Assembly (NCBI GenBank): GCA_019057385.1
Contig: JAHQJS010000006.1
Span: 256,001-320,000, forward strand
Source of the DNA: Candidatus Borrarchaeum weybense
GTDB taxonomy: Archaea; Asgardarchaeota; Sifarchaeia; Borrarchaeales; Borrarchaeaceae
Reading direction: 5' to 3'
DNA length: 64,000 nt
Translations under genes and position numbers: made by a program
Notes under the pieces: generated by a model
The model's input: only the letters and a program-made list of their open reading frames with translations
Told to the model about the DNA's origin: nothing
The model's database searches: none
Shown here: positions 3,290-3,357 of the stretch, piece after piece
Position numbering within the stretch: the stretch's first letter is position 1
Layout of the letters: each line of letters opens with the position of its first letter

Positions 3290-3357
3290 TCATCAGCGTA
3301 ACTATAAGCGATCATCCTCAAAATTTGAGCTCACCCTTGCCAGTTAACTTCATCTGA
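3290..3357 (-). ncRNA. Double-guide C/D box sRNA targeting 23S rRNA helix 69 and helix 71 region
   Basis: Minus strand reads GATGAAG (C-like), TTAACTGGCAAGG guide, GTGA (D'), hairpin CTCAAATTTTGAG, GGATGAT (C'), CGCTTATAGTTACG guide, CTGA (D). The guides are complementary to conserved LSU rRNA sequences CCUUGCCRGUUAA and GUAACUAUAA. Confidence 0.8.

What the first reader, a model, noticed from the sequence alone, without database searches (positions are those of the whole stretch)
3290..3357. Unannotated C/D sRNA predicted to methylate two eukaryote-conserved LSU rRNA sites
Seen: C, D', C' and D boxes with two 13-14 nt guides, about 50 nt downstream of rpl35ae on the same strand. Applying the D+5 rule, the D guide marks the second A of GUAACUAUAA (E. 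coli A1913, helix 69) and the D' guide marks the G of CCUUG (E. coli G1945). From recalled numbering these equal yeast 25S Am2256 (snR63) and Gm2288 (snR75). Inference: one Asgard-type sRNA covers two sites served by separate snoRNAs in yeast and may be co-transcribed with a ribosomal protein gene. It is a candidate ancestor of eukaryotic snoRNAs.
Basis: partly seen in the sequence, partly recalled or inferred. Interest (0 to 1): 0.75.

Follow-up and report, generated by a model that had tools for sequence, protein, structure and literature searches.

The report
Conserved Asgard double-guide C/D sRNA
This is a real archaeal box C/D guide RNA, found across the Asgard archaea, whose two guides pair with two nearby spots of the large-subunit rRNA that yeast also methylates; it is a new family of a well-known kind, not a new kind of system.

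Summary
On the minus strand (about 3357-3284), 51 nt after the rpl35ae stop codon, lies a C / D' / C' / D box RNA.

- **Targets.** The D guide pairs 10/10 Watson-Crick with the genome's own 23S helix 69, and N+5 falls on E. coli A1913. The D' guide pairs 9 contiguous plus 3 with the sequence 32 nt downstream, and N+5 falls on G1945. These equal yeast Am2256 (snR63) and Gm2288 (snR75).
- **Conservation.** A model of the RNA hits 66 of 151 genomes of the phylum and 0 of 121 of an outgroup phylum. Most inspected hits carry both guides. Guide bases change together with rRNA positions 1918, 1946, 1950 and 1951.
- **Machinery and expression.** Fibrillarin, Nop5 and L7Ae are encoded. Three metatranscriptomes from three studies hold contigs covering only the sRNA. 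One contig is circularly permuted, suggesting a ~74-nt circle.

The evolutionary inference is only partly supported. Both sites are already predicted targets of separate sRNAs in Crenarchaeota, and no similarity to eukaryotic snoRNA families was detected. Co-transcription with rpl35ae is unresolved: a conserved TATA-like box lies upstream. The scan had not noted this RNA on other DNA.

Verdict: new member of a known kind, moderate interest.

The parts
3409..3702 (-). rpl35ae (ribosomal protein L35Ae) gene, upstream neighbour on the same strand
   Evidence: ORF. Pfam PF01247 E 1.4e-18. Stop codon TGA at 3411-3409.
3381..3390 (-). TATA-like element (UUUAGAUAAA), about 26 nt upstream of the sRNA 5' end; possible own promoter
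   Evidence: An AT-rich box in the same place in all five genomes of the genus. An ATAAATG box at the same distance in the diverged flank of the X17 contig. Its function is inferred, not shown.
3284..3357 (-). Box C/D sRNA, about 74 nt; ends taken from the permuted RNA contig
   Evidence: Boxes and guides read. Contigs of three RNA libraries cover 3251-3372, 3284-3354 and 3297-3357 with no differences. The X19 contig joins 3354 back to 3284 through three letters. Model R1 scores it 68.7 bits, E 1e-18; it is one of the training sequences.
3350..3356 (-). C box CAGAUGA (GAUGA core)
   Evidence: GAUGA is invariant in the 11-sequence alignment A1.
3335..3349 (-). D' guide; positions 1-13 (3335-3347) pair with LSU 3436-3448, and N+5 = LSU 3440 = E. 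coli G1945
   Evidence: Pairing. Numbering. Covariation with rRNA 1946, 1950 and 1951 in relatives.
3331..3334 (-). D' box GUGA (degenerate; only the GA is invariant across homologues)
   Evidence: Alignment A1. D' boxes of homologues listed.
3317..3329 (-). D'-C' spacer hairpin (5 bp, 3-nt loop), overlapping the first two bases of C'
   Evidence: RNAfold of the spacer gives -3.0 kcal/mol. Hairpins of unrelated sequence occupy the same place in families f1, f2, f4, f8, f10, f13, f17 and f22.
3312..3318 (-). C' box AGGAUGA
   Evidence: AUGA is invariant in A1.
3297..3311 (-). D guide; positions 2-11 (3298-3307) pair 10/10 WC with LSU 3405-3414 (helix 69 loop), and N+5 = LSU 3408 = E. coli A1913
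   Evidence: Covariation with rRNA 1918 (A-U, G-C, G.U) in relatives.
3293..3296 (-). D box CUGA
   Evidence: C-GA is invariant in A1.
3284..3292 (-). 3' tail UGAGUGGAC; UGA can pair with UCA just before the GAUGA core
   Evidence: 100% conserved in the genus. The 3' end is taken from the permuted contig.
63257..63532 (-). L7Ae-family gene in the same window (K-turn-binding core protein of C/D sRNPs)
   Evidence: PF01248, 99.7 bits, at G000:C6:319257-319532. Coordinates converted using the window offset of 256000.

Best explanation
This is a box C/D methylation-guide sRNA of an Asgard archaeon, a genus-level relative of Candidatus Borrarchaeum yapensis.

Proposed mechanism:
- The ~74-nt RNA folds so that the C and D boxes, and the C' and D' boxes closed by a short hairpin, form K-turn-type motifs bound by L7Ae.
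- Nop5 and fibrillarin then assemble on it.
- Each guide pairs with nascent 23S rRNA in domain IV. Fibrillarin 2'-O-methylates the nucleotide opposite the fifth guide base upstream of the D or D' box.
- The D guide targets the second A of the helix 69 loop (E. coli A1913). The D' guide targets the G of CCUUG 32 nt downstream, next to helix 71 (E. coli G1945).
- Because the sites are close, one sRNP can hold both strands while this part of the subunit interface folds.
- The RNA probably also exists as a circle.

Shown here: the box layout, pairing with the host rRNA, phylum-wide conservation with compensatory guide/target changes, presence of the protein machinery, and presence of the RNA in RNA libraries.

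Inferred: sRNP assembly, the methylations themselves, circularisation, and how the RNA is transcribed.
For: - **Anatomy.** All four boxes are present, with 15-nt spacers.
- **Own rRNA.** The D guide makes 10 WC pairs at LSU 3405-3414. The D' guide makes 9 + 3 pairs at LSU 3436-3448, and the two sites are 32 nt apart. Shuffled guides gave both matches within 50 nt in 0 of 3000 trials.
- **Numbering.** A1913 and G1945, checked against an annotated E. coli 23S.
- **Conservation.** Homologues were found in all four other genomes of the genus and in many other families. Model R1 hits 66 of 151 genomes and 25 of 52 genera of the phylum, against 0 of 121 in an outgroup phylum. A pattern scan of all GTDB species found it in MAGs labelled Borr-, Njord-, Baldr-, Jord-, Frey-, Heimdall-, Hod- and Thorarchaeota.
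- **Both guides kept.** About 40 of about 47 inspected homologues carry both guide cores.
- **Covariation.** rRNA 1918 A or G pairs with guide U or C. rRNA 1946 C or U pairs with guide G or A. rRNA 1951 U or C pairs with guide A or G. rRNA 1950 A or G pairs with guide U or C.
- **Invariant columns.** These are exactly the box cores and the guide cores.
- **Machinery.** Fibrillarin (306 bits) lies next to Nop5 (225 bits), and there are two L7Ae genes.
- **RNA libraries.** Contigs from three studies cover only the sRNA at full identity. One is circularly permuted.
Against: - No methylation data and no strand-specific or small-RNA reads are available. Logan contigs cannot prove transcription or give the strand.
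- The C box departs from RUGAUGA at its first two positions, D' is GUGA, and the terminal stem is only about 3 bp.
- In this genus the D' guide has drifted. It has a G:U at position 8 and a mismatch at position 10. On Watson-Crick pairs alone, a non-conserved LSU site (3913-3920, 8 WC) beats the G1945 site (7 WC).
- A D'-type match arises in 29% of shuffles.
- The permuted junction rests on one contig of depth 2.8.
- The X20 contig diverges just before the D box, and the X17 contig extends beyond the mature ends.
Confidence: 0.85

Rival explanations
1. It is a genuine C/D sRNA, but in this genus only the D guide (A1913) is a working methylation guide. The drifted D' guide would be a folding chaperone without methylation, or would be aimed elsewhere. 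Candidates are the intron of a tRNA-Asn-like gene (C5:329166-329258) and LSU 3913-3920.
For: - Relative to the perfect 13/13 guide of G012, the D' guide has a G:U at position 8 and an A:A mismatch at position 10.
- Both derived bases create Watson-Crick pairs with the tRNA intron sequence CCCUUGGCAGUUAC, giving 6 + 6 pairs with one central mismatch.
- Position 8 also extends an 8-WC match at LSU 3913-3920.
Against: - Nine contiguous pairs including N+5 remain at G1945, which is within the usual 9-12 bp of archaeal guides.
- The intron match has its mismatch next to the methylation position.
- The intron of G005 does not match that genome's guide.
- The LSU 3913 sequence was not found in six relatives.
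- The rest of the phylum keeps G1945 pairing, with covariation.
Confidence: 0.12
2. It is a chance arrangement of short box-like motifs in an AT-rich spacer, and no functional RNA is made.
For: The boxes are short and partly off consensus. A loose whole-genome regular-expression scan gives 37 box-like candidates, most of them without rRNA matches.
Against: - The element is conserved across the phylum, with the box and guide cores invariant and the flanks diverged.
- Guides and targets covary.
- Shuffled guides never gave the paired matches, 0 of 3000.
- sRNA-only contigs occur in three RNA libraries.
Confidence: 0.02
3. It is a K-turn element in the 3' UTR of rpl35ae that binds L7Ae to regulate or stabilise the ribosomal-protein mRNA, rather than a free guide RNA.
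For: - It lies 51 nt after the rpl35ae stop codon on the same strand.
- The linkage is kept in the genus, in G005 (f2), in G026 (f13) and more loosely in f15.
- L7Ae is reported to bind mRNAs in archaea (title and abstract of PMC5539422, listed).
Against: - In most families the same RNA is not next to rpl35ae. In G040 it lies 4 kb away, and none was found within the fetched flanks for Heimdall-, Thor- and Njord-type copies.
- This reading does not explain the guide conservation and covariation.
- RNA contigs cover the sRNA and not the gene.
Confidence: 0.03

Closest known systems
Archaeal double-guide box C/D sRNAs (e.g. the Sulfolobus, Pyrobaculum and Pyrococcus sR families; Omer et al. 2000; Dennis et al. 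2015, PMC4644070)
   Same: - The C / D' / C' / D layout and the N+5 rule.
- Two guides aimed at neighbouring positions of one rRNA region.
- Targets in the H68/H69/H71 hotspot.
- Dependence on L7Ae, Nop5 and fibrillarin.
- Circular forms are reported for archaeal C/D sRNAs (PMC7994747).
   Different: - No Rfam family matches it.
- The spacers are 15 nt rather than the typical ~12 nt.
- The C box is off consensus at two positions.
- Many members have a hairpin in the D'-C' spacer.
- It is conserved across a whole phylum, whereas precise sites are said to be generally not conserved between archaeal groups (PMC6009581).
Sulfolobus acidocaldarius Sac-sR113 (PMC4644070 supplement)
   Same: Its D guide (...CAGAGUUACU + CUGA) puts N+5 on the same helix 69 adenosine. 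This is alignment position A2179 = E. coli A1913, taking the paper's stated 2178 = 1912. It is an expressed sRNA, with 32156 reads.
   Different: Its D' guide has no predicted target. It has a short K-loop-type spacer and shows no sequence relation outside the guide.
Pyrobaculum calidifontis sR54 and Thermoproteus tenax sR130 (PMC4644070 supplement)
   Same: Their D' guides (...CUGGCAAGU and ...CCGGCAAGC) put N+5 on the same G of CCUUG. This is alignment position G2211, 33 positions after 2178, i.e. E. coli G1945.
   Different: There the partner D guide targets about 22 nt further downstream (U2233 in their alignment), not helix 69.
Yeast snR63 (human U46/SNORD46) and yeast snR75 (Arabidopsis AtU15)
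   Same: The target nucleotides are the same: Am2256 = E. coli A1913 and Gm2288 = E. coli G1945.
   Different: - In yeast these are two separate snoRNAs rather than one double guide.
- No similarity was detectable with Rfam covariance models at E <= 10.
- Common descent of the guides cannot be tested, because the guide sequence is dictated by the conserved target.

Membership tests
Archaeal box C/D sRNA | Terminal C box (RUGAUGA) and D box (CUGA) able to form the tandem G.A pairs of a K-turn | tested here: met
   The C box is CAGAUGA, with the GAUGA core kept and the first two positions off consensus. The D box is CUGA. GAUGA and C-GA are invariant in 11 homologues. K-turn formation itself was not tested.
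Archaeal box C/D sRNA | Internal D' and C' boxes in the right order | tested here: met
   D' is GUGA and C' is AGGAUGA. The GA of D' and the AUGA of C' are invariant. The spacer forms a hairpin or is 4-8 nt long in homologues.
Archaeal box C/D sRNA | Guide regions of about 10-15 nt directly upstream of D and D', complementary to rRNA or tRNA, with a Watson-Crick pair at N+5 | tested here: met
   Both spacers are 15 nt. The D guide makes 10 WC pairs. The D' guide makes 9 contiguous pairs (one G:U) plus 3. N+5 is paired in both.
Archaeal box C/D sRNA | Guide-target pairing maintained in evolution | tested here: met
   Compensatory changes occur at rRNA 1918, 1946, 1950 and 1951 across 11 genomes that have both the sRNA and the LSU. 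One exception is a conserved A:C mismatch at 1916 in family f8.
Archaeal box C/D sRNA | Genome encodes L7Ae, Nop5 and fibrillarin | tested here: met
   PF01269 306 bits, PF01798 225 bits (adjacent genes), and PF01248 99.7 and 58.9 bits.
Archaeal box C/D sRNA | Expressed as a discrete small RNA | tested here: inconclusive
   Contigs in three RNA libraries cover only the sRNA, and one is permuted as expected for a circle. However, contigs give neither strand nor ends, and DNA carry-over cannot be excluded.
Archaeal box C/D sRNA | Assembles with the core proteins and directs 2'-O-methylation at the predicted sites | not testable with these tools
   This needs RiboMeth-seq or in vitro reconstitution.
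Orthologue or ancestor of eukaryotic snR63/U46 and snR75/U15 snoRNAs | Same target nucleotide | tested here: met
   A1913 = Am2256 and G1945 = Gm2288.
Orthologue or ancestor of eukaryotic snR63/U46 and snR75/U15 snoRNAs | Sequence or structure similarity beyond what the shared target forces | tested here: not met
   No Rfam snoRNA family for these sites matches the region at E <= 10. The only weak C/D hits are unrelated (snR51, Z105, sR30) and lie far below their thresholds.
Orthologue or ancestor of eukaryotic snR63/U46 and snR75/U15 snoRNAs | Targeting of these sites specific to the lineage leading to eukaryotes | tested here: not met
   The same sites are predicted targets of Sac-sR113, Pca sR54 and Tte sR130 in Crenarchaeota. 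A DPANN-like MAG (L110) also has an A1913-type D guide.

The most novel reading that the evidence does not exclude
The A1913 + G1945 double guide was already present in the last common ancestor of the Asgard archaea. On this reading it is the direct forerunner of the eukaryotic guides for Am2256 (snR63/U46) and Gm2288 (snR75/AtU15), which arose when one archaeal double guide split into two single-guide snoRNAs. These two methylations would then be among the few that can be traced continuously from archaea into LECA.
Probability: 0.15. Interest if true: 0.7.

Novelty: new member of a known kind. Interest (0 to 1): 0.45.

Why it matters
Box C/D sRNAs of Asgard archaea do not appear to have been catalogued. 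Two full-text searches for Asgard C/D sRNA or snoRNA catalogues listed no such paper, and Rfam has no match.

This RNA gives a well-supported, phylum-wide sRNA family with a ready covariance model and two concrete, testable methylation sites. The sites lie at the subunit interface: the helix 69 loop, which forms bridge B2a and contacts the A-site tRNA, and the base of helix 71.

In other archaea the exact sites are reported to turn over quickly. A double guide kept across most Asgard classes therefore suggests these two methylations are under unusual constraint. They also coincide with sites methylated in several eukaryotic supergroups. That makes a modest but real addition to the question of which rRNA modifications predate eukaryotes.

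It does not change what is known about how C/D RNPs work.

Tried and rejected
- **Rfam.** Scans at gathering threshold over the window, and at E <= 10 over 3150-3500, found no family for the element.
- **First shuffle score.** A score that counted G:U as half a pair was too lenient: 65 of 300 and 23 of 300 shuffles reached the observed value. I replaced it with contiguous-run criteria.
- **tRNA-Asn intron as D' target.** The intron is identical in G002 and G004, there is no orthologue in G001 or G003, and the G005 intron does not match its guide. There was no covariation to test, so I kept it only as a minor rival.
- **LSU 3913-3920 as D' target.** The sequence was not found in six relatives and lies in a stretch that BLAST does not align to E. 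coli.
- **Run X18.** It held some words of the sRNA, but nothing could be laid on the stretch. I draw no conclusion from it, nor from the lack of contigs over rpl35ae.
- **Outgroups.** I could not obtain a genome handle for a bona fide Thermoproteota or Methanobacteriota genome, so the model was run on only one outgroup phylum, that of a Thermoplasmatales MAG (0 of 121). The single whole-collection pattern scan was restrictive, and about 80 of its 100 hits were listed.
- **Thermoplasmatales hits.** The matches of that scan in Thermoplasmatales MAGs (L115, L127) lack an upstream C box and D' guide and look like chance.
- **Promoter tool.** The sigma-70 promoter/terminator scanner was not used, because it does not model archaeal promoters.
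- **Earlier notes of the scan.** A search by sequence found only this same stretch.

Full report
**What is there**

The finding lies on the minus strand. The ORF 3409-3702 (-) is ribosomal protein L35Ae (Pfam PF01247, E 1.4e-18). Its stop codon is TGA at 3411-3409. After 51 nt of spacer comes the RNA, which reads in RNA sense as follows:
- C box CAGAUGA (3356-3350)
- a 15-nt spacer
- D' box GUGA (3334-3331)
- a 13-nt stretch that folds into a 5-bp hairpin
- C' box AGGAUGA (3318-3312)
- a 15-nt spacer
- D box CUGA (3296-3293)
- a 9-nt tail

No ORF of 40 aa or more overlaps it. Rfam has no match at gathering threshold in the window, and none worth the name at E <= 10 in 3150-3500.

**Pairing with the host rRNA**

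The genome's single LSU rRNA lies at C5:335393-340196 and is 4804 nt long.
- The D guide pairs through 10 uninterrupted Watson-Crick pairs with LSU 3405-3414 (GUAACUAUAA). The fifth guide base upstream of the D box faces the second A.
- The D' guide pairs with LSU 3436-3448 (CCUUGCCGGAUAA) as 7 WC, one G:U, one WC, one mismatch and 3 WC. Its fifth base faces the G of CCUUG.

The two target nucleotides are 32 nt apart. In an annotated E. coli 23S, GTAACTATAA starts at 1910 and CCTTG at 1941, and the stretch aligns without gaps. The targets are therefore A1913 and G1945.

Shuffled guides reach a D-type match in 2.2% of trials and a D'-type match in 29%. Both matches fell within 50 nt of each other in 0 of 3000 trials. 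The D' match alone is thus not convincing in this one genome.

**Comparative evidence**

A BLAST search of relatives found the RNA in all four other genomes of the genus (83-99% identity) and in two further families. I aligned 11 homologues (A1) and built a sequence model (R1).

The invariant columns are GAUGA, the guide core C-G-CAA, the GA of D', the AUGA of C', the guide core U-AUAGUUACG, and C-GA of the D box.

R1 matches 66 of 151 genomes and 25 of 52 genera sampled from the phylum. It matches 0 of 121 genomes sampled from the phylum of a Thermoplasmatales MAG under the same settings.

A pattern scan of one genome per GTDB species found the RNA in MAGs labelled Borr-, Njord-, Baldr-, Jord-, Frey-, Heimdall-, Hod- and Thorarchaeota and Promethearchaeota. 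The copy in Candidatus Borrarchaeum yapensis is identical to the window, flanks included. This places the window's genome in or next to that genus, within kingdom Promethearchaeati, the Asgard archaea.

I inspected about 47 hits, and about 40 carry both guide cores. Exceptions:
- Family f3 (1.4-Mb genomes) keeps the D guide but has a different D' guide.
- A few weak hits share only one guide.

**Covariation**

Eleven genomes have both the sRNA and an assembled LSU, and in them guides follow targets.
- rRNA 1918 is A opposite guide U in six genomes and G opposite guide C in three. One genome has a G.U intermediate.
- rRNA 1946 is C opposite guide G, except in G016 and G026, where it is U opposite guide A.
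- The same two genomes have C1951 opposite guide G, where the others have U opposite A.
- G1950 faces C in G034, where A1950 faces U in G011 and G012.

This is the strongest evidence that both guides act on these two sites. One unexplained exception remains: five genomes of family f8 keep an A opposite rRNA C1916.

**Architecture**

The family comes in two forms.
- A 54-58-nt form has a 4-8-nt D'-C' spacer.
- A 60-83-nt form has a spacer hairpin of unrelated sequence in each family. The window's RNA is of this second form.

**Machinery and expression**

The genome encodes fibrillarin next to Nop5 (C3:58900-60356) and two L7Ae-family proteins. One of these lies in this window, at about 63257-63532.

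Four metatranscriptome runs from four studies hold words of the sRNA. Three could be laid on the stretch. Their contigs cover 3251-3372, 3284-3354 and 3297-3357 with no differences, and nothing else of the 801-nt stretch.

The X19 contig is permuted. It reads 3320-3354, then three letters, then 3284-3349. In RNA sense this is ...GUGGAC-CUC-GAUGAAG.... CUC is what relatives G002 and G003 have in front of GAUGA. The contig therefore looks like the junction of a ~74-nt circular RNA from a sister strain. Circular C/D sRNAs are known in archaea (PMC7994747).

This evidence is limited. It rests on assembled contigs of low depth. They give no strand, and DNA carry-over cannot be excluded. The X17 contig runs past both mature ends, and the X20 contig diverges just before the D box.

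**Transcription**

The rpl35ae-sRNA linkage is kept in the genus, in G005 and in G026, and more loosely in family f15. It is not kept in most other families. In the Freyarchaeota chromosome the two lie 4 kb apart.

Within the genus, an AT-rich TATA-like box sits upstream of the RNA. In the window it is UUUAGAUAAA at 3390-3381, about 26 nt before position 3358. An own promoter is therefore at least as likely as co-transcription. I could not decide between them.

**Comparison with what is known**

Yeast Am2256 is guided by snR63 and Gm2288 by snR75 (PMC5199042). Psi2258 equals E. coli 1915, which puts Am2256 at 1913 (PMC2794176). The 32-nt spacing puts Gm2288 at 1945.

A Dictyostelium study lists the same sites as follows (PMC8817022):
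- Am2522 (Dictyostelium), Am2256 (yeast), Am3739 with U46 (human)
- Gm2554 (Dictyostelium), Gm2288 (yeast), Gm2278 with AtU15 (Arabidopsis)

These sites are not special to Asgard archaea, however.
- Dennis et al. describe H68, H69 and H71 as methylation hotspots in archaea (PMC4644070).
- Their supplement lists Sac-sR113 with a D guide on alignment position A2179. The text states that 2178 equals E. coli 1912.
- It also lists Pca sR54 and a T. tenax sRNA with D' guides on G2211, 33 positions further on. The listed sequences confirm the guides.
- In those species the two sites are served by different sRNAs with different partner guides.

What appears particular to the Asgard phylum is the pairing of the two guides in one RNA and its persistence across classes. 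The literature states that precise sites are generally not conserved between archaeal groups (PMC6009581).

**Verdict**

The 'ancestor of eukaryotic snoRNAs' reading remains a possibility that the present data cannot test.

It is a new family of a known kind. Interest is moderate.

Noticed in passing
G000:C5:329166-329258 (-), outside the window: A tRNA-Asn(GUU)-like gene has an intron whose sequence CCCUUGGCAGUUAC is complementary to the window sRNA's D' guide, 6 + 6 pairs with one central mismatch. The two bases that make this guide imperfect for rRNA are the ones that fit the intron.
   Followed up: partly
G000:C8: about 117870 (+), outside the window: A second C/D-like candidate lies here. 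Its D' guide has 10 WC pairs at LSU 3433 (about E. coli 1938) and its D guide has 8 WC pairs at LSU 3412 (about E. coli 1917). It targets the same H69-H71 region.
   Followed up: no
G000:C5:332700-340196 (rRNA operon; L001): The LSU rRNA match spans 4804 nt against 2987 model positions, and the SSU 515-to-1492 distance is 1979 nt. Both rRNA genes therefore carry large insertions (introns or expansion segments).
   Followed up: no
L043, L044, L054, L052 (LSU of G037, G006, G016, G022): Several Asgard LSU genes have an insertion directly after helix 69 (about E. coli 1927), between the two target sites of this sRNA. G016 still keeps both guides. G006 and G037 have lost the G1945 guide.
   Followed up: no
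window 63257-63532 (-): An L7Ae-family gene (PF01248, 99.7 bits) lies near the end of the window.
   Followed up: no
window 810-3233 (-): The gene immediately downstream of the sRNA encodes an 807-aa protein rich in hydrophobic stretches, with no Pfam match at E <= 0.001.
   Followed up: no
L094, L158, L135 (genome contigs): MAGs labelled Nitrososphaerota or Crenarchaeota in their records carry the Njordarchaeia-type version of this sRNA. Two of them (L158, L135) sit in the same GTDB phylum as the window's genome: L158 is identical to G024, and L135 lies in G034/G155.
   Followed up: partly
L110 and L104 (genome contigs): An AT-rich unclassified archaeal MAG (L110) has a C/D sRNA with an A1913-type D guide but a different D' guide, complementary to GGUAGCGUAAU. 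A Nanoarchaeota MAG (L104) has what looks like a single-guide half-size version.
   Followed up: no
L076-L080 (G056, G081, G075, G021, G011; family f8): All five carry the guide UCAAAGUUAC. Against the one assembled LSU of the family (G011), this gives a conserved A:C mismatch at rRNA position 1916, inside the D-guide duplex.
   Followed up: no
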